A stretch of DNA of 63,054 nucleotides, filler included, from Kipferlia bialata (Eukaryota): NCBI GenBank assembly GCA_003568945.1. It is 6 parts of 6 records of this genome, joined end to end, with 100 filler letters (N's around TTAATTAATTAA, not from the genome) between each part and the next. Parts side by side here need not be neighbours in the genome. Positions count along the whole stretch, not along the records: positions 1 to 11,598 come from BDIP01001218.1; positions 11,699 to 23,295 come from BDIP01001219.1; positions 23,396 to 34,990 come from BDIP01001220.1; positions 35,091 to 42,903 come from BDIP01001221.1; positions 43,004 to 54,587 come from BDIP01001222.1; 1 more part is not named here. One strand, given 5' to 3'. This document shows positions 5,461-54,587 of the stretch, piece after piece. The position numbers and the translations under genes are program-made. Each line of letters starts with the position of its first letter. Position 1 is the stretch's first letter. Below the pieces are notes generated by a model that made no database searches, was not told the DNA's origin, and was given only the letters and a program-made list of their open reading frames with translations.

Positions 5461-5514
5461 TCTCTCTCCCTACACCCCTATTAGTATGGGTCACTTGAGT
5501 CTGCCTCGTCATCC

Positions 5515-5559
<45 letters not shown>

Positions 5560-5634
5560 TACACCCTTAGTATGGGTCACTTGAGTCTGCCTCGTCATCC
5601 TCATCCCCCCCCCTCTCTCTCTCCCCCTACACCC

Positions 5635-5719
5635 TTAATATGGGTCACTTGAGTCTGCCTCGTCATCCTCATCTGCCACCAGCATCCTGGGTCTGTTGGG
5701 GTTGCCTAGGGGTTAGTAC

Positions 5720-5759
<40 letters not shown>

Positions 5760-6024
5760 GGATATATATAGAGAGAGAGAAAGAGAGTATATAAATATAG
5801 AGAGAGTATATATATATAGAGAGAGAGAGAGAGACTCTATTCTGCCACCAGCATCCTGGGTCTGTTGGTGTTGCCTGTGTATTAGTAGTAGAATGTATAC
5901 ACACACATATATATGTGTATATAAATATATACATAGGTATGTATATAAACCCACATACTAATATATATATATACATATCTATATTTACATACCATCCTCC
6001 ATGTAGTCATGTGCGTCCATCTCC

Positions 6025-6065
<41 letters not shown>

Positions 6066-6795
6066 CACATATATACATATCTATATATACTCACCGTCTT
6101 CCATGTAGTCCTGTGCGTCCATCTCCTCATCTGACACATGCTCATCCACAAAGAGGGTACTCCTAAGATTAGTTATATATATGGCCACACCATACATATA
6201 TATAGTATATATACAGAATATGAATATATATATATATATATATAGTATTCCATCTCCTCGTCTGACACATGCTCATCCACAAAGAGGGGGCTCCTAATAG
6301 TAAGTATGACGTATATATACACATATATATGTGTGTGTGTGAATGTATTCATCGTAGTACAATAAATGTATACATAGACACTTATACATATATTATATAT
6401 ACAAAACATATAGAGATCCCACCGGACAAACAGAGGGCTCCTAAATATGACTGACTGTACATGTATAGTGTCGAATCTCCATCTGTGAATGAAATCAATA
6501 TATAGAATATAGGGGGCTTCTTCAGGGTTATAAATATATTGGAATACGTATATAGATAGTATATATACTTCTCATTCGTCACACACAAATATTCACTACT
6601 TACTTGTACTTCTGTATATATATGTATATATGTATATGTATACATGTACTTCTGTATATTGTATGACGTACCACTTCTCTGGCTGGTTCTGCTGGCTCAT
6701 GGTGACCTAGGGTTAGTAATATATATATATATATTTATATATATACATATATATATAGAGAGAGAGATGCTCATGGTGACCTAGGGTTAGTAATG

Positions 6796-6839
<44 letters not shown>

Positions 6840-7013
6840 GCTCATAGTGACCTCGGGGTGAATAAGGGTGCAGAAAGAGAGAGAGACAGAGAGCCAGAGC
6901 GAGAGGGATTACCTGCGCATATGAGAGTGTAGGAATACAAATATATGAACAAATATACGTAGACTACATAATAAACACCTGATCCCACCAGCACACTGGA
7001 TATCAGCCCCTTG

Positions 7014-7051
<38 letters not shown>

Positions 7052-7171
7052 CTATATATATATATGTACACACCTGGTCTCCCACCAGCACACTTGATAT
7101 CAGCCCCTTCACCTCTCTGCTGTTGACAGAGTCACCATCCATAGGGAGATCAGCTGATATAAGGGTGTAGG

Positions 7172-7206
<35 letters not shown>

Positions 7207-8760
7207 ATAATATAGTGGATATTAGTAAGCATATTCATTGGTATATACCTGTCTCTCCCTCTGCTCTCTTAAACACACAGAAGTGCCCCCGACGGAGCCA
7301 AAGGAGCTTGTTGAAGCTGGGAATAAGGGTGTAGAGGGAGAGAGAGACAGTCAGAGTATATAGGGTAACCTGTGGGGAGTCAATTGTCACACAATGTATA
7401 TATTCAATAATTACTAAATTAGTGTTAGTGTTAGTGTATGCAGAGACACATGGACCGAGTACCAAGGAGTAGCCCCCCCCCCCCCCCAATCCCCCATATC
7501 TATCTACACATATGTAGAAGTATATAGATGCATATATATACATATGTATGTATATAGACCCTTTCATACTGTATAGACATGGAGAGAGAGAGAGGGGCAT
7601 ACCGTGTGGGCAGCAGGGCAAGGAGAAGGGAGAGTATATATAAATATTGTATNNNNNNNNNNNNNNNNNNNNNNNNNNNNNNNNNNNNNNNNNNNNNNNN
7701 NNNNNNNNNNNNNNNNNNNNNNNNNNNNNNNNNNNNNNNNNNNNNNNNNNNNNNNNNNNNNNNNNNNNNNNNNNNNNNNNNNNNNNNNNNNNNNNNNNNN
7801 NNNNNNNNNNNNNNNNNNNNNNNNNNNNNNNNNNNNNNNNNNNNNNNNNNNNNNNNNNNNNNNNNNNNNNNNNNNNNNNNNNNNNNNNNNNNNNNNNNNN
7901 NNNNNNNNNNNNNNNNNNNNNNNNNNNNNNNNNNNNNNNNNNNNNNNNNNNNNNNNNNNNNNNNNNNNNNNNNNNNNNNNNNNNNNNNNNNNNNNNNNNN
8001 NNNNNNNNNNNNNNNNNNNNNNNNNNNNNNNNNNNNNNNNNNNNNNNNNNNNNNNNNNNNNNNNNNNNNNNNNNNNNNNNNNNNNNNNNNNNNNNNNNNN
8101 NNNNNNNNNNNNNNNNNNNNNNNNNNNNNNNNNNNNNNNNNNNNNNNNNNNNNNNNNNNNNNNNNNNNNNNNNNNNNNNNNNNNNNNNNNNNNNNNNNNN
8201 NNNNNNNNNNNNNNNNNNNNNNNNNNNNNNNNNNNNNNNNNNNNNNNNNNNNNNNNNNNNNNNNNNNNNNNNNNNNNNNNNNNNNNNNNNNNNNNNNNNN
8301 NNNNNNNNNNNNNNNNNNNNNNNNNNNNNNNNNNNNNNNNNNNNNNNNNNNNNNNNNNNNNNNNNNNNNNNNNNNNNNNNNNNNNNNNNNNNNNNNNNNN
8401 NNNNNNNNNNNNNNNNNNNNNNNNNNNNNNNNNNNNNNNNNNNNNNNNNNNNNNNNNNNNNNNNNNNNNNNNNNNNNNNNNNNNNNNNNNNNNNNNNNNN
8501 NNNNNNNNNNNNNNNNNNNNNNNNNNNNNNNNNNNNNNNNNNNNNNNNNNNNNNNNNNNNNNNNNNNNNNNNNNNNNNNNNNNNNNNNNNNNNNNNNNNN
8601 NNNNNNNNNNNNNNNNNNNNNNNNNNNNNNNNNNNNNNNNNNNNNNNNNNNAGAGATAGAGAGAGAGAGAGAGACATACCGTGTGGGCAGCAGGGCAAGG
8701 AGAAGGTCTCCGTTGCCATCCTGGAGCTCAAAGAGGTTGCCCCCTGATATAAGGGTGTAG

Positions 8761-8791
<31 letters not shown>

Positions 8792-9620
8792 CCCAAAGAG
8801 GTTGCCCCCTGATATAAGGGTGTAGGGGGGGGGAGAGAGAGAGAGGGAGAGAGAGAGATGGGGGTCAAAGAGGTTGATATCTGTATTGTATTCATATATA
8901 GTTATTCTAGAGTAAGAAGAGGGTACGTAGTATATGAACCCTGGTACCGGGGCTCTCACACACTTTCCAATGCCCCCCTGGCTAAATCTATATATACTAC
9001 ATATACTATACTATCTATATATACTACATATATAGTATACCTCCTGCTAAGCGAGACAGACGAGGGCATACATATGTATATATATATAGTACACTGGTAC
9101 CTGCGGCTCTCACACACTTTCCAATCTCCTCCTCGCTCGGTATCTCGGGGCACTCCTGGAGTGCCTGGAATAAGGGTATAGAGAGAGAGGGTGGGGAGGG
9201 GGGGGTTGGCATCTCAAGACCTGCGCTGTACATATGTATTCATATATGAAGAGAGAGAGAGAGAGAGAGAGAGAGCCAGAGAGGGTGGTTACCCCAGGGT
9301 ACTCCTGGAGTTCCTGGTTCGTGTGAATTGAAAATATATCGAGGGAGAGAAGGAGAGAGAGACAGACATACTTATGGTCAATTTGGATAGAGATACACAG
9401 GGAGGACAATGGAATCCACTGCACAGTACATCATAACCCTTTGCCTTTCTTTATACACATATGTATATGTATAGAGACAGAATAACGCACACGGGGAGGA
9501 TGGGATGCAGAATGTAGCAGAGACAGTGTCAGATGATGACAAGCAGAGTAGCGTGAGGGATTGGACGGGGAGGGAAACACCGCCTACCTGAATCACATGC
9601 TTGCGTGCTTTTGATGCCAT
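5635..9620 (-). CDS. EIF1AD: EIF1AD (eIF1A-domain/S1-like RNA-binding protein), 8 exons
   Basis: Spliced translation MASKARKHVIQ|ALQECPEIPSEEEIGKCVRAA|GGNLFELQDGNGDLLLALLPT|RFNKLLWLRRGHFCVFKRAEGET|ADLPMDGDSVNSREVKGLISSVLVGDQ|VTMSQQNQPEK|WSTLFVDEHVSDEEMDAQDYMED|GNPNRPRMLVADEDDEADSSDPY*. Matches EIF1AD hallmarks (RKHV start, GxNLxE, P-x-R/K-F-x-K-x-x-W-x-x-RG, NxNR before an acidic tail). Confidence 0.88.
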
Positions 9621-9728
9621 ATAGGGGACTGGAGGGTTACACTTGGTTGTAGACTGCGGGAGTTTCTAAGAGGCACAAGGAGAGTGGTGACTCACCACTT
9701 GAGATCACTCCGTTTGGATTCGTGTTTT

Positions 9729-10105: not shown

Positions 10106-10151
10106 GTGCAGTGGATACATCTGGTATCACGCCACTTGGATCTGAATCTGC

Positions 10152-10201
<50 letters not shown>

Positions 10202-10281
10202 TCACACTAACTTGGGAGTGTTAGTTTCCTCTCTCTCTCTCTACACACACAGACGGTTGACTCTGGGAGCACGTACGGAGC

Positions 10282-10313
<32 letters not shown>

Positions 10314-10318
<5 letters not shown>

Positions 10319-11551
10319 CTGAGTACTCTGTGTCTGAGTACCCACCTCTCTCAGGCTCAGAGGAGATGAGGACTCTCTGCCTCCTAGGGGGAAGGCGGGT
10401 CTGGCCTGGTATTGGTATATATGTAATGAGTATATACACATTATATATACACTATATATATATACTATACACATACCTAGTGCCATCAGGGGATCACTCT
10501 CTCTCTCCCCCTCACTCTCTCTCTCTGCATAGGAGAGTGTGTCACTATCCTCCACCCCGTATGTCTCTCTCTCTCCCTCTCTCTCTCTCTCTCCCTCTGA
10601 ATCTCCCTCTGTCTCCTCCTTCTCCTCAACAGTGGGCAGGGCAACAAGGCCATTGAAGCCTAGAGGTTAGTAATACTAAAAGTAGTGTAACTATATATAC
10701 ATATATATAATTATATAATTATATAGTAATGTAAATATTCATCCTCTTCTACAGTGGGCAGGGCCAACAAGGCCATTGAAGCCTAGGAGTAAGAATATAT
10801 CATATTGATAAATACTCATTAGTTAAGTACATATTTACATACATCCATATCTAGGACTGGTTTGGTTAAGTAACTACATATGCATACCTATACATATGGT
10901 TAAGAATATACATATATACATATACACATCACCATACCTAGGGATGGGTCCAGGACCTCGGCACCGACCATGTATAGTAATATATACATAATACAATATA
11001 CAACAAATATACAATAAGAGAAAGTACCAACACATGTTTTGTGATATATATACACATCCATACCTAATATAACAATTATTTACATATTTACATACCTAGT
11101 GCTGGGTCCAGGACCTCGGCACCGATGTTGACTAGCAGGGTGCCTGGGATGAGGAATATATACGTATACATATATACATATATATAGTATATGTATATAT
11201 ATTGTATGTTGTATATATTAGCACAGATATTGACTAGCAGGGTGCCTGGGATGAGTTATATATACACACAAATCCAATGCTCAATACTGAGTACGCAAGT
11301 ATAACATAAACATTGAACTCTACTATTATATAGTACACATACCATCGTCAGAGTGCACTAGCAGAGTGTTGGCATCGAATGCTGCCCCCCTATAGTACAT
11401 TGTATAGTATATGTATATAGTGTGTATATATATAATAGTACATACCATCATCTGAGTGCACTAGCAGTGTGTTGGCATCGAATGCTGCCCCTCTACCAGA
11501 CACAAACACATTGGGAGAGCCTGCCCACTCTCTGGCACGGTGCGAGGGGGA
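10314..11551 (-). CDS. 3' part (last 4 exons) of an unknown protein with acidic/ER-rich C-terminus; 5' end cut by contig end
   Basis: SPSHRAREWAGSPNVFVSGRGAAFDANTLLVHSDD|GTLLVNIGAEVLDPAL|GFNGLVALPTVEEKEETEGDSEGERERE...DPLMAL|GQTRLPPRRQRVLISSEPERGGYSDTEYSD*; consistent phases, TGA at 10314-10316. Confidence 0.7.
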
Positions 11552-11598
11552 CTGAAGGGTTAGACTAATGGTAAATAGCATATATAGTATATGTAGTA

Positions 11599-24474: not shown

Positions 24475-27400
24475 AGTGTGTGGCCTTCCTGCCCTGGCAT
24501 GCAAGTACCACCGGTATGTATTGGTTATATGTATATATATATTCTGATAATCTGCCTTATATCACTCTACACCCTTATATCCCCAGGTGCACTGTCTGCC
24601 GATGACTGCTATATCATCTATATACGAATAAACATGAAAGCGATATCCCTACACCCTTACAATCCACCCTACACCCTTACTATCCATCCTACACCCTCAT
24701 TCCCCAGGTGTACTGTCTGCCCATGGCCCTGCAATATAATATCCTATATATGTACACGCTTGTATATACACATATAGACATATGTATATATATATATATA
24801 TATACATGTCTCCCACTACCCCCTTATATCTCCAGGTGTACTGTCTGCCCATGGCCCTGCTCAGCAGTGAACTCAGCAGGTATAGGCCTAAGATATATAT
24901 ATATATATATATATAAGTACCCCCACTGCTGTAGATATGTATGGGTGTCTATCAAGGCCCTGCTCAGCAGTGAACTCAGCAGGTACTGTGTGTGAAGAAT
25001 ATATGTGTTGGTATATTCCCGGCACTCTCTCTTTCTCTCTCTATCCCTACACTAACCCCTAGCAAGTATGCCCGTGACAGTTACTCTCTCTCTCTCTCCA
25101 TGTCTCTCTCTACTAACCCCTAGTAAGTATGCCCGTACCGGTGGTGTCATCGAGTGGTGCCAGACACTCGGGAAGTACGGAAGATATACATAGTATATTA
25201 ATATATATATATATATTTATAGTATAGTATTGTATACAGTGCATGTATATTGTACATATACAGCTAGGTGGTGTCATCGAGTGGTGCCAGACACTCGGGA
25301 AGTGAGTGATATATACATGTGTATATGTAGTATACAGTGCATATATATAACTAGGTGGTGTCGTTGAGTGGCGCCAGAGACTCGGGAAAAGAGAGTCGTT
25401 CTGTACAGTATATGTATACGTGTATTAGTCCCATATAGTATGTATACATGTATACTTGCACTTCTGGTCATACTGTTCTATAATACACTCGGGAGTATTT
25501 GCAAGTATAGTGAGTTACATGTAATCTCTCCCTCTTCCTACATTCCCTCATAGCATTAGGAACATCATATGACTTCTCTCTCTCTCTCTCTATCTCTCTC
25601 CCTACACCCTTTTTACCCCCAGGAACGTTGGTGCAGTCAATGGGTACCTGCACTTCTTCTACAATATCATAGGTGGGTTCTCTCTCTGTCTCTCTCTCTG
25701 TCATATTGGTGTAGTTGAAGTTATATATACAACTTGTTAGGCAAATATTTGTTTCCTCAATATATATATCTAATGCTCTAATGCTCTACTCAACTATATA
25801 GAGATGTGTAGATAATGTATATATTTCTTGTAGTCGTCTAGTATGCCATTGATATACATTACCAATTCTAAAATGTGTTTGTTGCCATTGCCAGACAATG
25901 CCCTACCCGTCCAGTAGTGACTGTCACCATTCTCCCTCGGTATATTGAATACGTATCTATCTATTCACATACACCCCATACGCCCCATACACCCACCCCC
26001 AGACAATGCCCTCTACCCCTCCTGTTGTTGTGACTACCTATCACGGATTGAACCCTTCCAGGCACTCAGTGGTGGAATACCTAGGTAATTTTATGTGAGA
26101 GTATTGCATAATAGTGTTTGTATAGAGGTATACTATATACCTACGTAGTATTGAACCCTTCCAGGGACTCAGTGGTGGAATACCCGGGTATTTAGACGAT
26201 CAACGTGGACCCGCGGCATTTGTACGGAGACGTATGTATTATCTCTTTCTACAATGGTAAATAGACGATTATACGCTCATATACAGGGTCCTCTTCTCTC
26301 TGTCACTGTTACATGTATGTATTCTCTCTCTCTCTCGGGTGATTAGACCCCTGTGCTAAACTACAGGGTCCTCTTCTCTCTGTTCCTGTTCTGCCTGTCT
26401 GCTGTACTGAACTGCATGGGCCTTGAACTAGTAGGTATATAGTATAATAGAAATAGTATACCCTATACATGTGTACAACCTATATACATGCACTAATATA
26501 TGTTTAGTATTATAGTATATGCTGCCTGTCTGCTGTGTTGAACTGCATAGGACTGGAATTAGTAGGTGAGTATATATATACACTCCGTCTGTGTATTTGT
26601 CCCTCCAACACACTCACCCCAGGCACCAGTGCCCTTGTCTTCACCACCCTGGTCCTGCTTCCATTCCTAGGTACAGGAACAAATATAACATAAAGATATA
26701 GATATGTTAACAGATATACATGTATATATATGGCATTCCTCAGTGCATATGTGTATATATGTACCATATGTATGAGTATCTATTCATTACCCTGGTCCTG
26801 CTGCTATTCAGTAGGTATATAGGTATATATGCAATTGCCGTCATGCTCCTTGGTCACACACATATATATATATATATATATCTACACCCTTAATATCAGC
26901 ATTTATGTTCCTTGGTCTGCCCTCTGTCACATGGACACCTCTCTCTCTCTCTCTCTCTNNNNNNNNNNNNNNNNNNNNNNNNNNNNNNNNNNNNNNNNNN
27001 NNNNNNNNNNNNNNNNNNNNNCTCTCTACACCCTTATTATCAGCCTTTATGTTCCTTGGTCTGCCCTCTGTCACATGGGCTGGGCTGACATCACTGCCAA
27101 CAGATGGGAACACAGTACGATGCATATATATATTTATATATATATATAGATGGAAACACGGTACGAGGCATTATTATAGTATATCTACACTCTATATATA
27201 TATATAATAATACTAGTTATTTAGATATCACATGGGCTGGTCTGACATCACTGCCAACAGATGGAAACACGGTATGGATATAGTATATATCTGGTGTTAA
27301 TTGTGTATGTATCTCGTTATGTATTCCCCTCAAACCTGAAATGCTGTTCTTTCTTACCTTACTTTAGCCCTGTAGATCAATTATGTATCTATCCTTGATC

Positions 27401-29403
27401 TAACACACTAGATCAACTGGTTCCTCCTACTATCCACCTTGATCTGGAACTGTTCGGGGTTCGACACAATTGGCGCAGTGGCAGGTGAGTAATGTCTTTT
27501 CACATTGTATATTCATTAGCGTTACTATATGTATTACTACATGTATTACTATATTCCACTATTCTTTAATGGTGTATCCCTTGACATCAGTTTCGCACTT
27601 GATTCAGTAAGTCCAGATAGTAAATATCGTATTATAGTATTCCCTTAGTAAATAGTGTTACCTTCATTGAGTCATTTATTGATCGATTGACGTCAGAGGA
27701 AGTCAAGGAGCCCAAGAAGACATATCCAAAGGCCCTCTCACTCACTGTGCTTCTGGTATGGAAGAGTGTCTATCATATATACCATTCCATTATATGTGTA
27801 TACACACATACTCATATATACATGCAGATATATATATGGAGAAGGAACTTGCATCCCTCTCTCTCTCTCTCTCTCTCTTTTCTCTCACCATACATATTGC
27901 AGACATCCTAGTCGTGTTTCTGGTTCTCTCTCTCTATCTCATAAGAGTATACCCATTCTGCTTCGAGTGACGTCCTCTAGTCCAGTTATCTCTCTCGTGT
28001 CATATGTATATTTACATATGTAGACATTACTGACGGATTTTTAGGTTGTTCAGTAACATTCTGCCAGTAATCTCTCTCTCTCTTTCCTAACACAAGAAAA
28101 GAGAAAGAATATCTCTATATATCTATATAGTTGTTTCTCACCCTTAGGTTGGTGTCAGCTACATCCTGCTTGTTGGGGTCCTCTCTCTCTCTCTCTCTTT
28201 CTCCCCTAATGTATATCTATGTATATATATATATGTATATGTATATGTATCCTTACCCTCAGGTAGGTGCCAGTTACATCCTGCCAGTGATCTCTCTCTG
28301 TCCCTCTTTCTCTCTCCTAATATACATATATATACATATTTATACTCACCCTTAGGTAGGTGCCAGTTACATCCTGCCAGTCGGTGTAGGGGTCCTCTCT
28401 CTCTATCTATCTCCAATACTTTTATGTCTATTTCTGCATATGTATATACTGACTAACTGTCAGGTTGGCGCCAGTTACATCCTGCCAGTTGGGTTCCTCT
28501 CTCTCTCTCTCTCTCCCCTAACATGCCTATATTTACTATTGCTAACTGACAGGTTGGTGCCAGTTACATCCTTCCCGTCGGTGTAGGGGTGTGTGTACAG
28601 CCAGACACAAACATGTGGTATGTATATACGTACATAGACATATATATATACATGTAATAGTATATATATGTGTGTGTTGGGATGTGTGTACAGCCAGACA
28701 CATACATGTGGTACGGTGTAAAGTAGATAATAATATATATGTTTATAGTATAATTGTATAGATGGATACATATGGTGTATATGCATTGGTATATTATATA
28801 CAATAGGTGTGGGTATGAGAGTGTGTGTGTGCAGCCAGACACAAACATTTGGTGTGTCTTACATTATATTGGTATTGTATATATATTGTGTTTATTATTT
28901 CTATCTTTCATCCCACCCCCAGGTATGATGGGGCATTCATTGTTATGGCATTATGTATATACATATGAATATGTATACAAGATATATTGCNNNNNNNNNN
29001 NNNNATTATGTATATACATATGAATATGTATACAAGATATATTGCTATATATGTACATAGATGTATACATATATGATCCTCTCACCCCAGGTATGACGGG
29101 GCATTCATCGATATGGTATATATGTATATACAAATATGTATAGAATACAATGTGTATATATATATATATTATTATTATTATTATTATTATCATCCCACCC
29201 CAGGTATGACGGGGCCTTCATCGACATATCAAGGCTCCTCCCAACGGCATCTAACGGGTATGAAGTATCGTATACACCATAGTAATTGTACGGTATCGTT
29301 TCTGTATAGTGGTACAGTACTATCCAGAGGTTACACCCTCACACTATTTGTCTGTTGCGTTAAGTGGAATTGATATCATTTCCCACGTTCAGTCACTTAG
29401 TCA

Positions 29404-29443
<40 letters not shown>

Positions 29444-29521
29444 ACACCCTTACTCCCAGATGGCTGGCCCTTCTCCTGACCCTGAGTGGTGTACTCTCCT
29501 CATTTGGTATCCTGCAGGTAC

Positions 29522-29557
<36 letters not shown>

Positions 29558-31321: not shown

Positions 31322-31352
<31 letters not shown>

Positions 31353-31520
31353 CTTACACTCTTTATTCACATGGAAGTGCTGTGCCAGTGGTGGCAATCA
31401 TCACACAGGTAGACTATGTCTCTCTCTCTCTCTCTCTTCCTACACCCTTAATTCACATATATATGTGGCAATCATCACTCAGGTACTCTATGTAAATTAT
31501 ACTATATACAAATATCCTAC

Positions 31521-31559
<39 letters not shown>

Positions 31560-31866
31560 ATACTCACTCCCAGGCCCTCCTGTCCTCTCCCTTTGTGTTC
31601 TTCCAGTTCGAGTACCTGCTAGGTATACTGTCTATGTACTGCTAAAATGTTATCTTACCAATTATACTAGAGGTGAAGACACTGTCTGCTATGTATCATA
31701 CAAATTGTATCTTACATCACCCTTCTTTAGTCTTTAGCCTGCATCATACATTTATAGGTATCACTCACATACATATATATATCTCTTGCCCTCTCACCAC
31801 CAGCCCTCGATGGACTATTCACCTCCCTGACCCTCCTCTTGTAAATATTTGTGCCTCTATGTAAAT

Positions 31867-31897
<31 letters not shown>

Positions 31898-33081
31898 CAC
31901 ATGTATTCACTTTTACTGTCCCTATCTAATCACTAGGTCTCGACGGACTGTTCACCTCCCCGACAGTCCCTCGTTAATATTTGTACATATGAAAATATAT
32001 TTATATATCTATATATATCGCCCTCTCTCATCACCAGGCCTGGATGGTCTGTTCACCTCCATCTCTCTCTCTCTCTCTCTTTCTCTCCACTCTCATCCCT
32101 AGGTCTCGACGGTCTGTTCACCTCCCTGACCCTCCTGCTGGAGGTGGTGGCATACATCAACCTGAGGTAAGTATTAGTATATATTATGCTATATATAGAG
32201 CGTACATAGTAATATGTATAGTATATACTGTTAGTAGTTATGTATACTCTGACCTTTCTGCTGGAGGTGGTGGCATACATAAACCTCAGGTGGGTATAGA
32301 TGTATACTATGTATTACATATTATATATATGTACTGTATGCAAATGTATAGCATACTCTGACCCTGCTACTAGAGGTGGTGGCATACATCACCTGAGGTG
32401 GGTATTAGTGTATATATATATATATATAATGTATATATAGTATATATTATATGTAGTATATATTAAAAGTTGTTGGATATACTCTGACCTTTCTGCTGAA
32501 GGTGGTGGCATACATCAACCTCAGGTGGGTGACGCGTGTGTATATGAGTAGTGTATGTATAGTATATACCCTAAGTCGTTGTATATACTCTGACAATCCT
32601 GTTGGAGGTGGTGTTGATGAATACTCCCTCTAATATTCCTGGATGAAGACTCTCCCGCAGTGATGGAGACTTATGGATATATGTATTACTATGTCTTGTT
32701 TTACATACATATACATATGTATCAATATATGTGTATCTCTATATATATATGTATCTCTATATATGTGTATCTCTATGTACTACACCCTTTTTCCCCCAGG
32801 ATGCAGTCTAGAGAACGCTACTTTTGATACGTTTATATATATATATGTATGTGTATATGTGTATTCTACACCTTCTAATACTAGGATGCAGTCCAGAAGA
32901 CTCTCCGGCAGTGATGGAGACCTATACGTTGGCCTGCTGGACTCAGAGGCGGATCACTCTACACCCTTTATCAGCAGAGAGGAGAGAGAGAGAGTTATTG
33001 AGGGTCTTGAGGATGAGGTTGAGGGATATGTGGTGCCATACGGTATCCTGGGCACCATTGTGGTGAGTGTATCTGTCTCTA

Positions 33082-33123
<42 letters not shown>

Positions 33124-34510
33124 TCTCACACACACACACATATATATACATATACCTATATATATTCGGTTGCATCTGATCCCTTAGGTCTGCCTTCCCC
33201 TGGTCGTTGTGTCTGTGGCACAGTCACTCTCTCTCTCTCTCTCTCTCTAATATATCTCTCTCTATCTCATGTCTAGGTCTGCCTTCCTCTGGTCGTTGTG
33301 TCTGTGGCACAGTCACTCAGTGGGGGACTCTTGAACATACTAGGTACTACTAAACGTATTATATATACACATATATTCTATCACTAGTATGGTGTACTCA
33401 TATATGTGTATATATATGTCTGTGGCACAGGGACTAAGTGGGGTACTGCTCAACATAATAGGTACTGCCTCTCTCTCTCTCTCTCTCCCTTATATATAGC
33501 TAGGTACTGCCTCTCTCTTACTGAATAGTGTTGTTGCATATAGGTATGTAGTAGTTCTCTCTATGTATGTATTTTTATGTATGGAAGTATTCATACCCCA
33601 CTGTGGTGTGTATGTACTAACCCCAGTCATCCTTGTGCTCATGTCCTTCATGTCATATATATATATCTCTCAATATACATTGTATGTAGGAGTATATATA
33701 GAGAGGAGGTATTCTGACCCCAGTCGTCCTTATACTCATTGCATTTATGTTCTCTCTCGCTCTGTGTATATATTAGTGTTTGCACATATCTCTAAGAGTA
33801 TTTACAGGCATTATGTGTATTCTATGTCCCTTAACCCCAGTCATCCTTGTGCTCATGGCCCTTGGTCTCGGGGTGTACCACATCAACATCAGGTATATGT
33901 GTATGTATATATACATAATGTATGTATATACATAATTATAGAGGTAGAGAGAGAGATTGCCCTCTTGGTCTCGGAGTGTACCACATCGGTGGATATGTGT
34001 ATATATATATATATGTATATATATAGTGTATATATATTAGTAATGATAGTGTATATGTAGAAATGGCCCTCTTGGTCCAGAAGTGTTCCATATCAACATC
34101 AGGTACACATATGTATGTATATATACACACATATATATAGTCTTCCACTCTTTTATAGAGAGGGGGGTGGGTGGGGGGAGAGAGAGAGAGAGAGAGAGAT
34201 AGTACCACATCAACAAGGTTCCAGTCATAGTATATTGCTATCTGTCTGGATACAGAATATCAATAAGTGACGTGTGTTGATGAATCCCCATATCAGGACA
34301 GGAGGGCCAATGTCGTTATCACCCCTGTTACCCCTCATAATTGTATTATTACCGTTTCATATATATAATGTGTTTTGATGAATGACCCACAACAGGACAG
34401 GAGGGTCAATATATGTATACATATATTTATATATTTATATATTTATACATATAGACCCCCATATCAGGACAGGAGGGTCTGCGGCTGAGGCAGATGTGGT
34501 ATTGGTCTGA
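23821..34510 (+). CDS. APC-superfamily amino acid/polyamine permease (PUT/RMV1/POT1-like), more than 20 short exons, 5' end missing
   Basis: LVGLTFFVVAAGPAGIESAVNAAG; LPMALLSSELSS; GGVIEW; IDNALYPSCCCDYL; LSAVLNCMGLELVG; INWFLLLSTLIWNCSGFDTIGAVAEEVKEPKKTYPKAL; RELYAMA; LLEVVAYINLR; ends ADVVLV* (TGA 34508-34510). These motifs are typical of the plant/kinetoplastid polyamine transporter subfamily. Confidence 0.88.
30330..31318 (+). repeat. Array of about 8 truncated acceptor+exon-start copies (AG|GGCAAGGT(G/T)GACAGCG...) in one transporter intron
   Basis: Copies near 30338, 30428, 30525, 30654, 30792, 30925, 30996 and 31160, separated by TA-rich spacers, before the complete exon 31271-31318. 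Confidence 0.9.
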
Positions 34511-35090: not shown

Positions 35091-35093
35091 GAA

Positions 35094-35135
<42 letters not shown>

Positions 35136-35165
35136 AATAGAGAGAATATATACACATGCACTCAC

Positions 35166-35743
35166 TTGGACATGAGCATCTCAGAGGCACCGGCACCGAT
35201 CACAGTGCGGGACTCGTGCACAACCTGAGGGGGTAAGAGAAAGGGGGGGGGGTAATGGTTACACTATACATATACTGTATAATGCATGTATACACAGTAC
35301 CTGGGACAGCACAGCGAGGGCATCGTGAAGGGACCTCTCGGCCTCATCCAGGATGTGCTTGGAGGCACCCCTAGGAGGTGAGAGAGGGAGGGGGGGGAAG
35401 AGAGAGAGCGAGAGAGAGAGATAGAGAGAGGATGTGCTTGGAGGCACCCCTGGAGGGTAAGAGAGAGAGAGGGGGAGGGAGAGAGGGAGGGAGAGAGAGA
35501 GGATGTGCTTGGAGGCACCCCTGGAGGGTAAGAGAGAGAGACTGGGGTATATGAACATATACATATATTAATATATATATATAGAGAGAGAGAGATAGTA
35601 CCTGAGCACCACTGTGGATGCAGACTGGAAAGCAGATACTACATATGCATTATATATATATCCAATATATAAATATATATCCTGTGTATATACCTGAGCA
35701 CCACGGTGGATGGTAAGAGAGAGAGAGACTAAGGTATATATAG

Positions 35744-35786
<43 letters not shown>

Positions 35787-37777
35787 CTGAGCACCACGGT
35801 GGATGCAGACTGGGAGGGGAGGCCGGCAAACTGCACAAGCCTGTCCTCACCGATCATGATCTCCTGAGGGGGTGAGAGTGTGGGGGATACGCGAGATAGA
35901 GTACAATGATTAGATGTATAACATAGTGTATATACCTTGACGGATGCACACTTTCCGAGCTGGCATGTCTCTGGGTGGTCGAAGGTGGAGGCAATCTCAG
36001 ACCCAGTCACTAGGGCAAGTCTCTCAATGCCGTCAAAGTCAGCGTTGTCAACGGTCAGGACACCTGAGAGGTAAGAGAGAGGTAAGGGAAAGAGAGAGAG
36101 AGGTCAGACATAGTAAAGGCGAATCAGATACTAGTGTCAGTATAGGGAGCAGACGTCATATATACCTACACCTATATATATATATATATATATATACGTA
36201 CCCTGGCGAGCGAAGTACTCGGCGGGCACATCGTAGATGAGCTGCCTGTTGATAAGCACGTTGATGCCGGTGCTCACAATCTTGGCGCACTTCTCCTAGA
36301 GGGTTAGATCCACTAAATGAAATATAGCACAAACCAAACAATAACATCCCAAGATCAAGGAGAACCATAGCCCTAGTACCTGGATTCTGTCCCTCTCGGC
36401 AGCCTCGATGGCAGCGAGCTTGGCTGGCTGGTCGACACGCACACGGGTGCCCTGGGGGTGAGAGGGCATATATATATAGAGAGAGAGTGTGTGGGTGAAG
36501 GGGGTAGATAGAGAGGGAGGGGAGAGAATATAGTATGGCATTATAGAGTATGTGTGTGTGTGAGAGAGAGGGTGCACCCTACGTATGTATATCTACTCAC
36601 CATGATCTTGATCTTGTCCACGTCGAGTGGGGTGTTGACGACAAGGATGCGGGCATCCTCGATGGAGGTGGGGCAGCCTGGGGGTAAGTGCTTAATACAC
36701 ACATATATAAATACATAGAAACATCCACAAACATACATACACCCTCGATGGAGGTGGGGCAGCCTGGGGGTAAGTGCTTATTACATATATATATAAATAT
36801 GAACACACACAAACATCCATACACCCTCGATGGAGGTCGGGCAGCCTGCGGGGTGAGAGAAGGTACAATGATACAATAATATATGTATATACATGTTTAT
36901 ATATACTTGTACACATACCCTGCACAATGGGCTTGTCCAGCAGGAATCCGTCAGAGAGGAAGGAGTCCTTGAGGGTGCCGCCAGACTTCTTGATGATCTG
37001 GTATAAGGGGCTAGAGGGAGAGAGAGAGATAAGAAGGTGGGAGAGAGACAGCTCACTAGAGATGGGAATGATAAGGTGCTAGAGAGAGAGAGGGAGGGAG
37101 AGACGCAGTACCTGGATGTGGGAGAGGTCTGTGCTTCCCTTGAGCCTGAGCACAGCGTCCACAGCGAGGTTGGCAAAGAACTCACTGAGTGTAAGTAATC
37201 ATATCTAAATTATATATCATAGCTATAGCAATTACGTACCGAGAGTGCACCAGAATCTTGGAGGAGAGGGTGGTACTATACATGTATATACATACACACA
37301 ATAATTATATATGTTTAACGTACCGAGAGTGCACCAGAATCTTGGAGGACAGGGTGGTACGGGCAATGTTCATGAGGTCCTCCCTGAAGGCAGTGGGGTC
37401 CTGAGGGTGAGGGGGCACGATCAGATACAACGAGGGAGAGAATGAGAGAGAGAGAGAAGACAACGGTGTCCTGAGGTGAGATACATGTACAGAGAGAAGT
37501 TGAAGATACTACGTAATAGAGAAGGTATGTGAAGAATATACGAAGGAGTGTGGGGGGAGGGGGGGGGGATTCTTGTGTATATATATGTATACCTCTCCGT
37601 GGTCCCTGGCAGCAGCCTCGAGGGCAGCCTTGGCGGTGTTGGAGGCCTTCCTGGGGGTGAGGACAGAGAGACCGATATAGAATATGAGTGTTAGTGCCAC
37701 AACATATGTTGTATCACACCTAAATCCCTCGATGATGGTCATGGGGTGCAGCTTCTGGATCATATTGGTGTGTATAC

Positions 37778-37814
<37 letters not shown>

Positions 37815-37883
37815 GTGCCATACCTGAATCCCTCGATGATGGTCATGGGGTGCAGCTTCTGTACCATACTCGTGTGTATACTT

Positions 37884-37920
<37 letters not shown>

Positions 37921-38826
37921 GTGTCATACCTGAATCCCTCGATGATGGTCATGGGGTGCAGCTTCTGGATCAGAAGCTTCTCGGCCTCCCTAAGGAGCTC
38001 ACCGGCAAGCACAACAACGGAGGTGGTTCCATCGCCAATCTCCTCGTCCTGGGGGTGAGGAATGGAGGGTAAATAGAGAGAGAGAGAGAGAGAGAGGGAG
38101 CCGATTCCCCTACCTGCACCCTGGAGAGGTCGCACAGAACTCTGGAGGCGGGGTTGTCGACAAGGATAGCCTGGGGTGACCAAAAGTATGCATACGCCAT
38201 ATATAACTAACCAAACTACAATTGATTCCTAATTGATTATGTATGAGATTGCCAGTAAACTCGACACCACCAACCTTGAGGATAGTGGCTCCATCGTTGG
38301 TGATAGACATAGCACCGGTCACAGACTGCAGAATCTTGTCCATACTGGGTGAGGGGAGGGGTTGGGGTTCGGATAGCAAGAAGTGAACATGGTGGAAATG
38401 CGCGGAAACGAGTGTCTATATACATGCACACAGAAGCACCATTAGGCGATACGTTCAAACCACACAAACTACACCATCTCAGCAGCAACCCAATAGAGCA
38501 CAGGTGCATCAATTAGAGGTATAAACGAGCACTTACCCCTTGGGTCCCATAGTGGACTTGAGCAGGTCAGCGAAGGCGATACCAGCGGAGACATTGGACT
38601 GGAGTGAGAACAATGCTCAAAAGAACACCTGTATCCACCAATATAACGTACCAGGCGGGCAAACTCGCCCTTCTCAGCCTTAGCTCCCTGGTTCAGGATC
38701 TGAATAGGTGCAAGTCCGTCCTGACGTGAATGGAGCGTAAAGAGACACACAGGAGCAACATATCGGAACTACACACCCAATAATCAACAAACACCGCACT
38801 ATATATGCCAACACTAGCCTTACCAT
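35166..38826 (-). CDS. CCT2: T-complex protein 1 subunit beta (CCT-beta), 3' truncated
   Basis: [24 protein letters not shown]|...[19 protein letters not shown]...[22 protein letters not shown]...|[40 protein letters not shown]...[15 protein letters not shown]...DKIKIM|GTRVRVD...INRQLIY...[25 protein letters not shown]...[23 protein letters not shown]. Confidence 0.97.
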
Positions 38827-48901: not shown

Positions 48902-48942
<41 letters not shown>

Positions 48943-51900
48943 GCATTGACGTCCTTAAGGGCAGCGGTGATGCGTGCAATGGCGTTGATGGCAGCAACCT
49001 GAATGGTAAGAAGTTAGAGGCATAACTGCATTCATATGGGCAAATACAGAAGGAGAGGGAGGGGGGGAAAGCACAATGGCGTTAGAGACGTCATACGTAC
49101 GGCAGTGTCCTCGCTGAATGTGCATGCAAAGACAGCGGCAGTGCACAGGCACCTGGGGTGAATAGCGTACGTCTTACTATACTCTACAACCACAACAGTG
49201 GAATGTGTAATTATAGGCGTGTATGTGTCTGTATGTGTGTCCCCTACCTGGCCGCAAGCTCAGAGGGCACACCCTCGCCCCTAACGCAGAAGCCTGAGGA
49301 GTTAGTATGTGCATGGCAGCAGGCCTAGCCCCTTCTTCTAATGTACATAATCACTATATACAAATATCCTGTTGTATATAAATAGAATTACAACATACCC
49401 AGGATGCCCCAGGCGGCTGCCCTTGCCTCCTCTCTTCCTAGCACTATACCATACATACTGTACATATATATGTGTATATATATTGTATGTATCAGCGTAC
49501 CTAGAATACCCATGGCAGCTGCCCTTGCCTCCTCCCTCTCAGAGGACAGGGTCAGGATGGCCTTGGGGTCAGGGTATATATATATATATATAAGAGTATA
49601 TATACATATACATATATATATATGTGTGTGTGTGTGTAAGGGGGTATATATCTCTCAGAGGACAGGGTCAGGATGGCCTGGAAGGTTGAGAGAGAGAGAT
49701 GCGGACATATTTAGAAATATGTATGAATACTATTGTCTATTATCTTATATATGTGTGTATATTGATTATATACATAGGGATGCTGCAGGACACTGGGTTA
49801 CATGTTGGTATGAGGGTATGTATGTACCTCGAGTGTGACTGACAGCACCTCAGGGCTGCACAGGGAGGGGGACACGGACAGGGTGTCGAAGATGGCCTAG
49901 AAGTAAGAGAGAGAGAGACATAGAGTAGTAGTGGTTCCGAAGAGGTACGTAAACGTTGTAGAGATAACTACTGAATGCGAACCTTGAATGATGCCTGCTG
50001 CATGTCCAACCCAGCCCCTGCCTTGGATATATACAGTATATCTACATATACGGTACGTATACTATATATACACATATATGTACACATACCTTGAATGAGG
50101 CCTGCTGCATGTCGAGCCCAGCCCCTGCCTTGGAGATGGCAAAGGTCAGGACCTCGGAGGTGGGGGTGTAGGTGGCTGGGGGTAAGAGACTGACACAACG
50201 CTATAAGATACAAGTATGAATATGACAACTGTAAGACCGCACCCTTGAACCTGTCCATGGTCTGCTGGGCACTGACACGCACAGGCCTGGAGGGGTGTCT
50301 GATCAGGATGTACAGCCTACATATTAGTATATATAGTACATAGTATATATACACACATGTATATATATATACCTACAGTGCCTAGATATGACTGTCTATG
50401 TGAGCTCTGGCAGGTACTTGAGTGCATGTATGTATATATACATATATATACACTATTAGTATATACAATATATATAGGATATAGAATATATACACACATG
50501 TATATATAGTATACTGTATACCTAGACATGACTGTCTCCGTGAGCTCTGGCAGGTACTTGAGGGCAGTGACACCGGAGTCGCACAGGGTGGTGTCGTCGT
50601 GGCCTAAGGATTAGCACATATATCCATTAGATACAGGTACATTAGAATACGAAGGAATGTACTATACCCAGTGCCATGAGGATGTCCTGCTGCAGGGTGT
50701 CCTTCATATAAATATATATATATATCCATATATAGTATATCATATGTCAGTGTCAATGCATACTATATGTACCTAGTGCCATGAGGATGTCCTGCTGCAG
50801 GGTGTCCTTCTTCTCCTCACAGTAGTCACGCATCAGACCTAGAGGGTGAGATACAGGTAATAGTACAATATACTCATATATCTCTTTCGTGTCACTACAG
50901 TAGTCACATATCAGACCGGGATGTAACCATACATTGTCGAAACTCATTGCCGTATGTATGACTGTACATAAATATACTCTATATCACTATCACTCACCAG
51001 CGAGGGCAGTGGCGTTGATGGAGCCTGGGTTGGAGCCATAGACCTCCTAACGGTGAGACAGAGGGCTGATTATTATTACCATATAGAAATATATGAATAT
51101 ACACTGATCCGACACAATATATATACTGCAAGGTGATACATATACCAATTGATACCTGGATGGGAGCGTAGAGCAGAGTGCGGAGGAGGTGTTACATATG
51201 TATAAGGGGCATACGGATATAATTCTATATATATGTATATATATCCACTGATACCTGGATGGGAGCGTAGAGCAGGGTGCGGAGGAGGGTGGTTCTCTCC
51301 CCGGAGGCAGGGGCCTGGAATCAGTGTGTGAGAGAGAGAGAGAAACATACATAATATTATTAATATTAATAATATGGACATATCAATGGACATAATTACA
51401 CATCTATAGTTACCTTGGCAAGAGACAGGGCCAGGCCGTGCCTGCTCATCCAGTCCTCCCTGTCGGCCAGGGACAGCAGGGAGGTCTTCTGGGACTGGGG
51501 TGAGGATACAGTCATATTACAACACTAATATTATACATATATATATATATATATGTGTATGTATTGTCTATATATACATGAGGAGGGATGCCTTCTGGGA
51601 ATGGAGTGAGGATACAAGGTGATACATCCCTTGAACCCTGCAGACACAAATATATAGCAAATATTGAAAGAAAGGGAAGACGTATAAGGTCAAGTCATCT
51701 AGGAATAATTGGAAGGAGACATGATAGTATATCTAACACTGTACCTCAGCCATGTTGATATAATATGCAAAATTCTCTCAAGAAATTCAGAGAAATATAG
51801 TAGTGATCAAAGTACATAGTGTTGTACCTCAGACATGAGTGTGTAGACCTTGGCCAGGGCACTGGCACTGGCACGGCGGCACTCAATGCTGGGGTGACAT

Positions 51901-52205
51901 GAACCCTCACAATATGATATAAAGAAATATGGACAACAGCACTAAATCGTTGAAATAATAGGTGCTGGCACTGGGAAGACTGCACTCAATGCTGGGTGAG
52001 ACATATAAATAGTGTGTATAGTATATACAGAGAAATAATATATAGAATATATAACCATAGTATATATAGTAAAAACATATAGTGTAAATAGTATACCTTC
52101 CGCTAGAGAGTGCCTCTATCAGCACATCAATGGATGCACTGGGGCACAGACACATATGAATAATAATGACCAATACCTATTGAATATACTACCTATTGAC
52201 CAGTA

Positions 52206-52251
<46 letters not shown>

Positions 52252-54324
52252 TATACCTTCCGCTAGAGAGTGCCTCTATCAATACATCGATGGATGCACT
52301 GGGGCACAGGCGCTCGGTCCAGGACACAAGGGACAGACCAATCAGACCACGGCGGGCAAGCTAGAGTCAGACTATAGTATACTAAGAATATACTACAAAC
52401 AGCATAAAGACCACGGCGGGCAATCTAGTGTAACAAGATAATGGTGAGACAGTAAGGAGATGTTAGCATTTGCCAATATATATACAAAGATGTCCGGAAG
52501 GGTTACGTAAACACAGACTGATACCTCGACGTTAGTGCTCTTGGCATGGGTGGTGAGGGCAGCCAGAAGGGCAGACCTGTACTTAGACTGAACAGTACAA
52601 ATATTACATATATTACACATATGTCCAGCTAGTTGGCATGGGTGGTGAGGGCAGCCAGAAGGGCAGACCTGGAATGAGAACAATGAGGACTAGAGTATAC
52701 CACAATGATATACCACATGATTATCATGGTCGATGCAAATGATAAGTGTATGAGGTAATACCTTCTAATGATAGCAAGACCATATCACTATGATGAGTAC
52801 ATATGTGTGTATATGTGTGTATATGAAGAGAAAAAGCCCGTACCTGCTGGGTGCGGAGGCGGGAAGGACCTCAAGGACGTAGCCTGGGGGGTAAGAAGTA
52901 TAAGAAATTACAAATACATTCAAGTATATACTGATAGACGGAAACATATGTGTGGGTGGGTGTACCTAGTGCAAGAGCTAGACCCTCCTCCTCCTCCCAG
53001 TTGTCAGAGTGTCTGCACAGGGCAGTGACACNNNNNNNNNNNNNNNNNNNNNNNNNNNNNNNNNNNNNNNNNNNNNNNNNNNNNNNNNNNNNNNNNNNNN
53101 NNNNNNNNNNNNNNNNNNNNNNNNNNNNNNNNNNNNNNNNNNNNNNNNNNNNNNNNNNNNNNNNNNNNNNNNNNNNNNNNNNNNNNNNNNNNNNNNNNNN
53201 NNNNNNNNNNNNNNNNCCAGTCCCTCCTCCTCCTCCCAGTTGTCAGAGTGTCTGCACAGGGCAGTGACACACTCCTCATAGACAGCCATGGAGAGAGAGA
53301 GAGACCGCACCATGGCATGGGCTAGGGTCTGGGCAGCGCCGTCTCTGACCTGAAGGTGAGAATATCGTACTATACGTAGGTATACAGATAGAAACTGTAT
53401 CTGTCTTTATATACAGTTTTCACTGACCTCTCTCTTAGTGTTGGCCAGCACGCTGATCAGGGTGTCGGTGCACCTGGGGTCAGGGGAATACGTGGCGACA
53501 AAGGGAGTTGGAATAGGGACAGAGAGACTATATATATCATTACACCGTATGATCCAGCCTGGAATATCAATATATGTATATGTAGACTATACCGACTATA
53601 TATACATGTATATACATATATATACATCTATATATATATATCTACATGTGAATACACCCACCTCTTGAGCATGGCTGGCTCCTGGACCTGTCTGACAACC
53701 TCCCTGGGGGTGAGGATATCAAATATAAATGTACATACAACGTACGCACACTAGGGGGTGAGGGAAGCAGCTACAATGGCTCTCCCTGGATATACTACAA
53801 CGTTGCATACAGTGGTAAAGAGAAATAGAATATGGGCACACATACTTATATATACATAGAGAAGGATAGAGAGAGAGCTTAATACCTGAGTGCGTGGGAC
53901 ACCAGGAGGTGGAAGTGCCAGTGAGTATAAATATATATATATAGATAGTGGTATTACAATAATATACCATATATATATATAGAGAGAGAGAGAGAGATTG
54001 GTACCTGAGTGCATGGGACACCAGGAGGTGGAAGTGCCAGTGGGGGAGCCTGAGGGTGAGAGAGCTGGGCAAGGGTAATATATATACTATCTCATAATAC
54101 ACACAACACACGTAAGAGTACAGAGTTATGTACGTACTCGAACATTGGGAGCACCACATCACACATATATCCACAAAGACTCACAATGGATACATTGTAT
54201 ATGTATAGAAAGAACATAGTATAGGTACGTACTCGAACATTGGGAGCACCACATCACACACAGTCTCTAGCCAGGGGACCAGGTTGGCGCCACTCTTCAG
54301 CAGCATGTCAACACGGGACCAGAC
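43513..54324 (-). CDS. Large HEAT/ARM-repeat-like helical protein (about 30 exons, 5' truncated, two gaps)
   Basis: Phase-consistent exons with HEAT-like motifs: KREVRDGAAQTLAHA, DNWEEEEGLALALG, SIECRRASASALAKV, EDWMSRHGLALSLAK, RHPSRPVRVSAQQTM; last exon DALANDTFSSECREDII* (TGA 43513-43515). Specific family not recognised. Confidence 0.7.
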
Positions 54325-54587
54325 CTGGTAATAAGTATATGTATAAGTATGGAGGTATATAGTAAGAAAAGTGATACGCTAAAATGAACATATATAATAT
54401 AGAATATATGGTTCAAGCAGCATGCTGTATCTTCAGCAGCATGTCAACACGGGACCAGACCTGATATGAGGAGAAGAGTACATAGTGACTCACATTCAGA
54501 TAGACACATACGGAAGAGGTACGTGTGGGGATGGGATGGAAAGGGGGGTGGGGGGGGGGGGGGGGGGGACACTCAACGGGTTTGAAA

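What the first reader, a model, noticed from the sequence alone, without database searches (positions are those of the whole stretch)
5470..54470. Pervasive 'exon echo' system: introns are packed with polar, truncated copies of adjacent exon ends plus their splice sites
Seen: in five of six contigs, many exons are followed by copies of their 3' portion + GT, e.g. CCT2 ~37720/37822, MOK ~40790/41637, transporter 23976/26523/27230/30229, HEAT ~47940-48200 (three copies). Many are also preceded by copies of branch point + AG + their 5' portion, e.g. EIF1AD ~5876/6293/6781/6852/8808, CCT2 ~36765/36846, transporter ~28147-28465 and ~31804-32038, HEAT ~43667/43787/43902. With rare exceptions the order is live exon, donor echoes, acceptor echoes, next live exon, and echoes break off sharply mid-exon into (TA)n/(GA)n filler. 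It affects housekeeping genes and inflates loci several-fold. Inference: an active splice-junction-centred duplication process drives intron growth. I do not know of a published description at this density.
Basis: partly seen in the sequence, partly recalled or inferred. Interest (0 to 1): 0.88.

Follow-up and report, generated by a model that had tools for sequence, protein, structure and literature searches.

The report
Introns grown from copied splice junctions
In a free-living relative of Giardia, most introns of some genes carry spare half-copies of the neighbouring exon end with its splice site, the RNA skipped them where this could be checked, and their mostly silent differences suggest that they were likely taken from working gene copies by recombination rather than left to decay.

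Summary
Real. The exons match proteins named Kipferlia bialata. Seven genes hold about 125 half-exon copies; all 132 adjacent hits obey the polarity, none is a whole exon. 56 of 83 introns carry one, each adding about 109 nt. On one 1.7-kb stretch, DNA contigs bridge exon and echo at single-copy depth, and an RNA contig skips all five catalogued echoes.

The kind is known: amphioxus 'mirages', human F7 IVS7 VNTR, CBS 844ins68; this scan also met it in sea-urchin DNA. Polarity follows from tandem geometry and needs no targeting machine.

New here: the density in a protist, and a paradox. Exon parts stay about 93% identical, with synonymous-biased differences (pN/pS 0.22; neutral-echo simulation 0.40), while intron flanks are mostly unalignable yet keep splice signals. 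Best reading (0.6): ~100-nt duplications over one junction survive because sites are chosen by position, and are then re-copied and refreshed from working exons by recombination. One isolate only; the mechanism is inferred.

The parts
5635..9620 (-). EIF1AD-like gene (name recalled), 8 live exons, 11 catalogued echoes
   Evidence: clean ORF; echoes
5481..5605 (-). two copies of the 3' end of the last EIF1AD exon with the stop codon region, no donor
   Evidence: 39/40 and 40/41 identical
10346..11551 (-). unnamed gene c1b, 4 modelled exons, 4 echoes
18097..23188 (+). unnamed gene c2b, 15 provisional exons with echoes; chain not validated, left out of codon and intron-length counts
23821..34510 (+). 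amino-acid/polyamine permease-like gene (name recalled), 23 live exons, 46 catalogued echoes
   Evidence: single ORF to the stop
28146..28492 (+). four acceptor echoes before live exon 28553-28617
30340..31201 (+). seven acceptor echoes before modelled exon 31271-31318; they carry 5' sequence (up to 18 nt) that the modelled live exon lacks
31806..32613 (+). three acceptor echoes, live exon 32103-32166, four donor echoes that all begin at the same exon position
35166..38723 (-). CCT2 (TCP1-beta) gene, 16 live exons, 9 echoes
   Evidence: exon 100% identical to P0002; chain reproduces residues 2-415
37718..37861 (-). two donor echoes of CCT2 exon 38048-37930; the nearer one keeps a homologous intron flank
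35429..35712 (-). two donor and two acceptor echoes in one CCT2 intron, enclosing an 81-nt inner GT..AG stretch
39139..42619 (+). MOK-like kinase gene (name recalled), 13 live exons, 10 echoes
   Evidence: clean ORF
40142..40298 (+). young array: two acceptor echoes with 119-nt units whose intron part is still homologous
43513..54324 (-). HEAT-like gene (= P0121, hypothetical protein), 31 modelled exons, about 37 echoes
43640..43902 (-). three acceptor echoes of the last modelled HEAT exon, all breaking at the same exon position
47938..48200 (-). three donor echoes of exon 48378-48246
50520..52200 (-). stretch tested with public contigs: five catalogued echoes (50705, 50917, 51189, 51993, 52149), each with DNA-contig cover and none used by the RNA contig

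Best explanation
The echoes are tandem half-copies of exon ends with one splice site, spaced about 100 nt apart and skipped by the mRNA where tested, which likely arise as short duplications across one junction and are likely re-copied and refreshed from working exons by recombination. Step 1 (inferred): a slip or template switch, often beside a (CT)n, (GA)n or (TA)n tract, duplicates about 30 nt of exon plus about 70 nt of intron. Step 2 (outcome shown, mechanism inferred): the spliceosome keeps the two sites that flank the intact exon, that is the first donor and the last acceptor of the intron, whatever their strength. One-junction duplicates are therefore harmless and accumulate, while other classes would be purged. 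Step 3 (inferred): the 20-50 nt shared by echo and live exon allow unequal exchange, which adds units with the same break point and swaps sequence between echo and coding copies. This happens either by capture from another, diverged allele with its own intron end (my odds 0.35) or by contraction or conversion frequent enough to expose the echo to selection (0.25). Step 4 (inferred): the microsatellite-rich filler has no such upkeep and scrambles.
For: Physical and skipped: DNA contigs 50781-51523 (depth 430) and 51568-52120 (depth 403) match without a difference across live exons and echoes, and a 36-nt piece shared by an exon and its echo has depth 950. The RNA contig's joints equal the live-exon chain, and it differs from echo 52149-52095 at 3 letters, as the live exon does. 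Tandem geometry: 132 of 132 polarity, 0 whole exons; unit median 103 nt, IQR 90-119, n=101. Position, not strength: the echo site scores at least as well as the live site in 33 of 57 acceptors and 26 of 49 donors. Re-copying: 18 of 32 neighbouring echoes share the break within 3 nt, against 20% of random pairs. Coding history: 256 differences in 3683 nt fall 58:38:160 on codon positions, 157 synonymous. Nearest echoes only (n=84): pN/pS 0.22, bootstrap 0.15-0.30, below all 300 simulations of a neutral echo (median 0.40, minimum 0.27); echo against echo 0.23 in 30 pairs. Echoes that lost GT/AG show 0.58 (n=15) against 0.18 (n=99), Fisher p=0.003. Decoupled flanks: only 35 of 115 flanks resemble their own live flank, and 15 of 26 echoes at 97% or more identity have no such likeness. 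Yet 20 of 25 unalignable acceptor flanks keep a branch-like motif (live 95 of 106; random AG 13% of 1016). Context: metamonads are reported to lack NHEJ, and fornicates to lack Rad51 and carry two Dmc1 paralogs (PMC8516963 section 8).
Against: One isolate: no second allele was seen (one search lists no variant letters, and contigs drop rare ones), and the metagenome scan returned no close relative (best about 60% protein identity). Allelic capture is therefore untested. It needs allelic introns that are unalignable while synonymous sites differ by only about 15%. Echoes with homologous flanks are also synonymous-biased (0.28, n=31), which a fresh sister copy would not explain. Unalignable acceptor flanks keep some likeness to their own live site (0.48 against 0.36). 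Microhomology at tract-adjacent breaks is weak (mean 1.3 nt, n=23; blunt joins give up to about 0.7 by my estimate). RNA evidence covers five echoes of one gene, from a contig that cannot show minor isoforms. The lower limit of filler length (5th percentile 42 nt) is unexplained.
Confidence: 0.6

Rival explanations
1. Plain neutral tandem duplication followed by decay. Junction-centring is only survival plus detection bias, and the synonymous excess comes from faster change at silent sites of the live exon.
For: Geometry and selection give the polarity for free. With ~95-nt introns, 60% of random ~100-nt units span exactly one junction and only 6% are intron-only. Echo genes are microsatellite-rich (7-21% against 0-2.4%). 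Nonsynonymous differences run GC to AT (32 against 15), as decay would.
Against: pN/pS 0.22 lies below all 300 neutral simulations, and echo-echo pairs give 0.23. Flanks next to nearly identical exon parts are often unalignable (15 of 26), although both would be neutral intron DNA of the same age.
Confidence: 0.13
2. An active, splicing- or transcription-coupled process aims duplications at splice junctions, for example breaks at R-loops or stalled spliceosomes.
For: None of 18 gap-free young intron-intron repeats is independent of a junction echo (15 have an exon or echo between the copies; the 3 labelled pure intron abut echoes by eye), where 21-26% were expected. Exon part and filler lengths are narrow and uncorrelated.
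Against: The 18 hits are about 13 loci, p about 0.04 by my arithmetic. Break points lie 12-58 nt inside exons, not at junctions, and the 3' end of a last exon without a donor is copied too. Targeting does not explain the synonymous bias.
Confidence: 0.12
3. Echoes are kept for a job at the RNA level: decoy sites, recursive or nested splicing steps, or rare isoforms.
For: GT/AG are kept in 106 of 120 echoes and site scores lie near those of live sites. Inner GT..AG stretches are of ordinary intron size (median 109 nt).
Against: A decoy has no reason to keep codons. Nested removal fails where donors and acceptors are unequal in number (37 of 56 introns have only one kind), and exons with donor echoes end in AG no more often than others (33 of 45 against 41 of 57). 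GT/AG loss (14 of 120) is about what decay gives. The RNA contig uses no echo.
Confidence: 0.08
4. Assembly artefact: alleles or repeats stitched in tandem.
For: Short-read-like scaffold with N gaps; two gap-flank duplicates exist; the unit is near 100 nt; run X1 may be the very sample behind the window.
Against: Separately assembled contigs bridge exon and echo at even depth, about double on shared sequence. 85% of 800 sampled words of the CCT2/MOK contig are in that run. No 55-mer is repeated in the window. Stitched allelic introns would give the opposite order and equal lengths.
Confidence: 0.03

Closest known systems
Amphioxus 'mirages' (Adh3, globin BflGb6/BflGb9, TnC, PGBD5; PMC3087553 and PMC3902484, passages read)
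   Same: Tandem duplications spanning an exon-intron boundary, on either side; many keep AG/GT; splicing undisturbed; units of 10-160 bp; unequal crossing-over proposed.
   Different: Described at a few animal loci, with BflGb6 units 81-100% identical; here two thirds of the introns of affected genes in a metamonad protist, with the intron part mostly unalignable and the exon part synonymous-biased. No such codon analysis appears in the passages read.
Human F7 intron 7 37-bp VNTR (PMC1557585, abstract read)
   Same: The first unit spans the exon-intron border; downstream pseudo-donors are functional but the most upstream one is used.
   Different: One locus, identical short units, donors only.
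Human CBS c.844_845ins68 (PMC2630376, passages read)
   Same: A 68-bp duplication of an intron/exon junction; the distal site is used and the upstream part-exon is spliced out; gene conversion between such chromosomes and normal alleles is proposed.
   Different: A single polymorphism whose echo carries a missense change; here the echoes are depleted of missense changes.
Intron gain by tandem duplication (Rogers model, as cited in PMC3087553) and tandem whole-exon duplication
   Same: Local intragenic duplication as the raw material.
   Different: No whole-exon copy among 135 hits and no new intron between the copies in the RNA tested; existing introns lengthen.
Introners and other intron-generating elements (recalled)
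   Same: Intron-rich unicellular genome.
   Different: Copies are local and exon-specific; 0 complex repeats between contigs.

Membership tests
Mirage (amphioxus-type) | Tandem copies that span an exon-intron boundary | tested here: met
Mirage (amphioxus-type) | Both 5' and 3' boundaries can be duplicated | tested here: met
   69 upstream and 63 downstream copies
Mirage (amphioxus-type) | Many but not all units keep AG/GT | tested here: met
   57 of 63 AG, 49 of 57 GT
Mirage (amphioxus-type) | Normal mRNA despite the copies | tested here: met
   five of five catalogued echoes skipped, one gene, one RNA contig
Mirage (amphioxus-type) | Minisatellite-like units alike over their whole length | tested here: inconclusive
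   true of young arrays, but only 35 of 115 flanks resemble their own live flank
Mirage (amphioxus-type) | Copy number differs between haplotypes or cells | not testable with these tools
   one isolate, contigs only
Tandem or mutually exclusive exon duplication | Whole exon with both splice sites | tested here: not met
   0 of 135
Introner or transposon-derived intron | Same element at unrelated loci | tested here: not met
   0 complex repeats between contigs; only a short motif is shared
Exon-definition splicing | Sites paired across the exon, not by strength or by the shortest intron | tested here: inconclusive
   outcome fits; oriented scanning or exonic enhancers are not excluded

The most novel reading that the evidence does not exclude
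Each echo is a captured piece of another working allele. In a lineage that repairs breaks by homologous recombination with Dmc1 and without NHEJ, short exons are the only sequence that diverged alleles still share, so exchanges slip out of register there and leave the other allele's exon end, splice site and intron end behind. A single genome would then archive the species' allelic diversity and record cryptic outcrossing, and recombination itself would ratchet introns longer under an exon-defining, reduced spliceosome.
Probability: 0.35. Interest if true: 0.82.

Novelty: new variant of a known kind. Interest (0 to 1): 0.62.

Why it matters
It shows a route of intron growth that needs no transposon. 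It also supplies more than a hundred natural competing-splice-site experiments per 60 kb in a lineage reported to keep only 87 of 174 spliceosomal proteins, with no snRNA candidates found (PMC6679479, passages). Choosing the outer sites over equally strong inner ones argues against the shortest-intron rule usually assumed for protists (my knowledge). If the synonymous bias reflects allelic capture, echoes give a one-genome test for recombination and diversity in a free-living fornicate. They also mislead gene prediction and fragment short-read assemblies.

Tried and rejected
No whole genome was held, so nothing here is genome-wide. No reads could be laid on the CCT2/MOK contig; read support rests on one 1.7-kb stretch of the HEAT gene, from contigs, and X1 may not be independent of the window. 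The metagenome scan with CCT2 found 346 relatives, the best 80 at 47-61% identity, none a close relative. One break making both echoes of an exon: rejected (5 of 24 within 3 nt, permutation p=0.27), though exons with one kind tend to have the other (odds ratio 2.7, p=0.02). Fixed-length duplication: exon part and filler are uncorrelated. Recursive splicing at the exon-final AG: no enrichment. cDNA origin: echoes carry exon-intron, not exon-exon, joins. The original mirage paper (PMC117041) was not held and is known only through two citing papers. Drosophila Y duplicated exons (PMC8794474, passages) are whole-exon sets and were not pursued. Literature searches (listings) showed no description in this species or at this density; subscription papers and supplements, including those of PMC5874029 and PMC3087553, were not seen.
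Full report
Setting. The window is six contigs joined by spacers; no whole genome is held. A CCT2 exon is 100% identical over 43 residues to a protein labelled Kipferlia bialata TCP1-beta, and a HEAT-gene exon to a hypothetical protein of the same species, so the DNA is of that fornicate or a near-identical strain. The species' genome paper counts 124,912 introns and its main text has no hit for 'duplicat' (PMC5874029, passages and section 12). I built live-exon chains: CCT2 reproduces residues 2-415 of P0002, HEAT follows P0121, and EIF1AD, MOK, c1b and the permease give open frames (names recalled). Gene c2b was not validated and is left out of codon and intron-length counts.

The observation. 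Self-BLAST found 135 complex direct repeats, all within a contig, median spacing 119 nt, none between contigs and none in contig 6. Aligning each of 110 exons with its own neighbourhood gave 135 hits at a cut reached by 3.0% of 1320 controls. All 69 copies of 5' halves lie upstream of their exon, all 63 adjacent copies of 3' halves lie downstream, 3 weak hits are non-adjacent, and none is a whole exon. For counts I kept hits scoring 28 or more with no exon skipped, set aside four hits of one permease family (126 left) and dropped one gap-flank duplicate (125). In six validated genes 56 of 83 gap-free introns carry an echo; intron length is 136 + 109 per echo (rho 0.81); units have a median of 103 nt, made of about 30 nt of exon and 73 nt of filler. 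Loci are inflated 1.3-3.0 fold. Six other genes gave 3 hits for 62 exons, and they have 0-2.4% dinucleotide repeats against 7-21% in echo genes.

Real or artefact. A DNA run holds 85% of 800 sampled words of the CCT2/MOK contig. On 50520-52200, separately assembled contigs cover 50781-51523 and 51568-52120 without a difference, across live exons and echoes, at depths 430 and 403. A 36-nt piece common to an exon and its echo has depth 950, as two full-depth copies would. One RNA contig joins 50602-50772, 50836-50996, 51045-51254, 51313-51413 and 51494-51828, exactly the live chain. Its next piece was laid on echo 52149-52095 with 3 other letters and runs on into live-exon sequence. So five of five catalogued echoes there are skipped. 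No 55-mer is repeated in the window. Limits: contigs, one isolate, possibly the window's own sample, one gene.

Polarity needs no special machine. A tandem duplication over a donor leaves the intact exon first and a headless copy second; over an acceptor it leaves a tailless copy first and the intact exon second. Whole-exon, whole-intron and in-exon duplications would alter the mRNA. With 95-nt introns, 60% of random units span one junction and 6% are intron-only. Among young duplicates, none of 18 gap-free intron-intron repeats was independent of an echo (15 by the script, 3 by eye), against 21-26% expected; with about 13 loci this is p about 0.04 by my arithmetic, so targeting is weakly supported at most. 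Breaks often abut tracts: (CT)n follows 18 of 63 acceptor-echo breaks (background 6%) and (GA)n precedes 5 of 61 donor-echo breaks (0.9%), with weak microhomology. Neighbouring echoes share their break in 18 of 32 cases against 20%, so arrays grow by re-copying a unit.

How the cell tolerates them. Echoes keep AG in 57 of 63 and GT in 49 of 57 cases, with scores near live sites and, for acceptors, far above random ones. The echo site is as strong as or stronger than the live one in 33 of 57 and 26 of 49 cases. The innermost GT..AG stretch is of normal intron size, so a shortest-intron rule would wreck these mRNAs. The spliceosome must choose by position: pairing across the intact exon, scanning from upstream as shown for human F7 (PMC1557585, abstract), or relying on full exon context as in the Reed and Maniatis duplicated-site experiments (recalled). 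Which of these holds is untested.

The paradox. Echo and live exon differ at 256 of 3683 nt, 58:38:160 by codon position, 157 synonymous. With one echo per exon side (n=84), pN/pS is 0.22, bootstrap 0.15-0.30. A neutral echo beside a constrained exon gave 0.40 (95% 0.30-0.53, minimum 0.27 of 300), and echo-echo pairs give 0.23. Five of six genes lie at 0.10-0.24 and EIF1AD at 0.51 (9 echoes); echoes without GT/AG lie at 0.58. Meanwhile only 35 of 115 intron flanks resemble their own live flank, and 15 of 26 near-identical echoes have unalignable flanks, most of which still carry a branch-like motif (20 of 25). On one non-recombining chromosome only one copy can be live at a time, so both lineages can look coding only if they were live in different haplotypes, or if exchange with the live exon exposes the echo to selection. 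Either way recombination between echo and working exon is implied (inference). It fits a lineage reported to lack NHEJ and Rad51 and to have two Dmc1 paralogs (PMC8516963, section 8); Dmc1's tolerance of mismatches is recalled, not tested. Against: no second allele was available, and echoes with homologous flanks are also biased (0.28, n=31).

Comparison. [quoted passage not shown] Human CBS 844ins68 is an acceptor echo with proposed gene conversion (PMC2630376, passages). The finding meets four mirage features, is inconclusive on whole-unit likeness and cannot be tested for polymorphism. Searches showed no report for this species, for a protist, or of the codon bias; the library lacks most subscription papers.

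Verdict. It is a new variant of a known kind: mirage-type junction duplications at very high density in a metamonad, with evidence that the copies have a coding history. Interest 0.62. The bold reading, that echoes are captured pieces of other alleles, has probability 0.35 and would merit 0.82.

Noticed in passing
window, 25 exact hits, e.g. 24219, 25602, 29442, 41820, 41904 (+); 7170, 7334, 8760, 44215 (-): A motif CTACACCC(C/T)T, usually after a (CT)n tract, recurs in unrelated genes; by eye 15 of 25 hits sit just before an acceptor AG in the sense direction. It may be a shared acceptor cassette or a splicing element.
   Followed up: partly
window 5470-5650: Three copies of the EIF1AD stop-codon region, each followed by that motif in the antisense direction; a duplication with no splice site involved.
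   Followed up: partly
window 30340-31318 and 29635: Seven upstream copies carry 5' sequence (up to six codons) missing from the modelled live exon, and a further copy lies two exons upstream, the clearest exception to adjacency. The echoes may preserve an older or other allele; RNA was not checked here.
   Followed up: partly
window 1866-1950 and 2210-2295: Two apparently live exons of the first gene end in the same ~85-nt sequence with the donor: a duplication kept as coding sequence.
   Followed up: no
window 44670-44802: An exon-like end and its donor echo beside the 984-N gap; probably a HEAT exon missing from the database model P0121.
   Followed up: no
window 28950-29045 and 46924-46990: Identical sequence on both sides of short N gaps: unmerged assembly overlaps, not echoes.
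   Followed up: yes
window 35091-35165 and P0002: The CCT2 contig ends in a G run, and the database protein's tail after about residue 415 departs from CCT2 relatives, so that model is likely chimeric.
   Followed up: partly
window 32959-32980: The acceptor-like motif followed by an AG and a GA-rich run lies in frame inside permease exon 32885-33062; possibly a former intron end.
   Followed up: no
window 20430-20475: A 46-nt near-perfect palindrome in an intron of gene c2b, the only complex inverted repeat found.
   Followed up: no
contig 6 (54688-63054), 800-4800, 11760-16950: Six genes with short, repeat-poor introns and almost no echoes sit beside echo-rich ones; the cause of this patchiness is unexplained.
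   Followed up: partly
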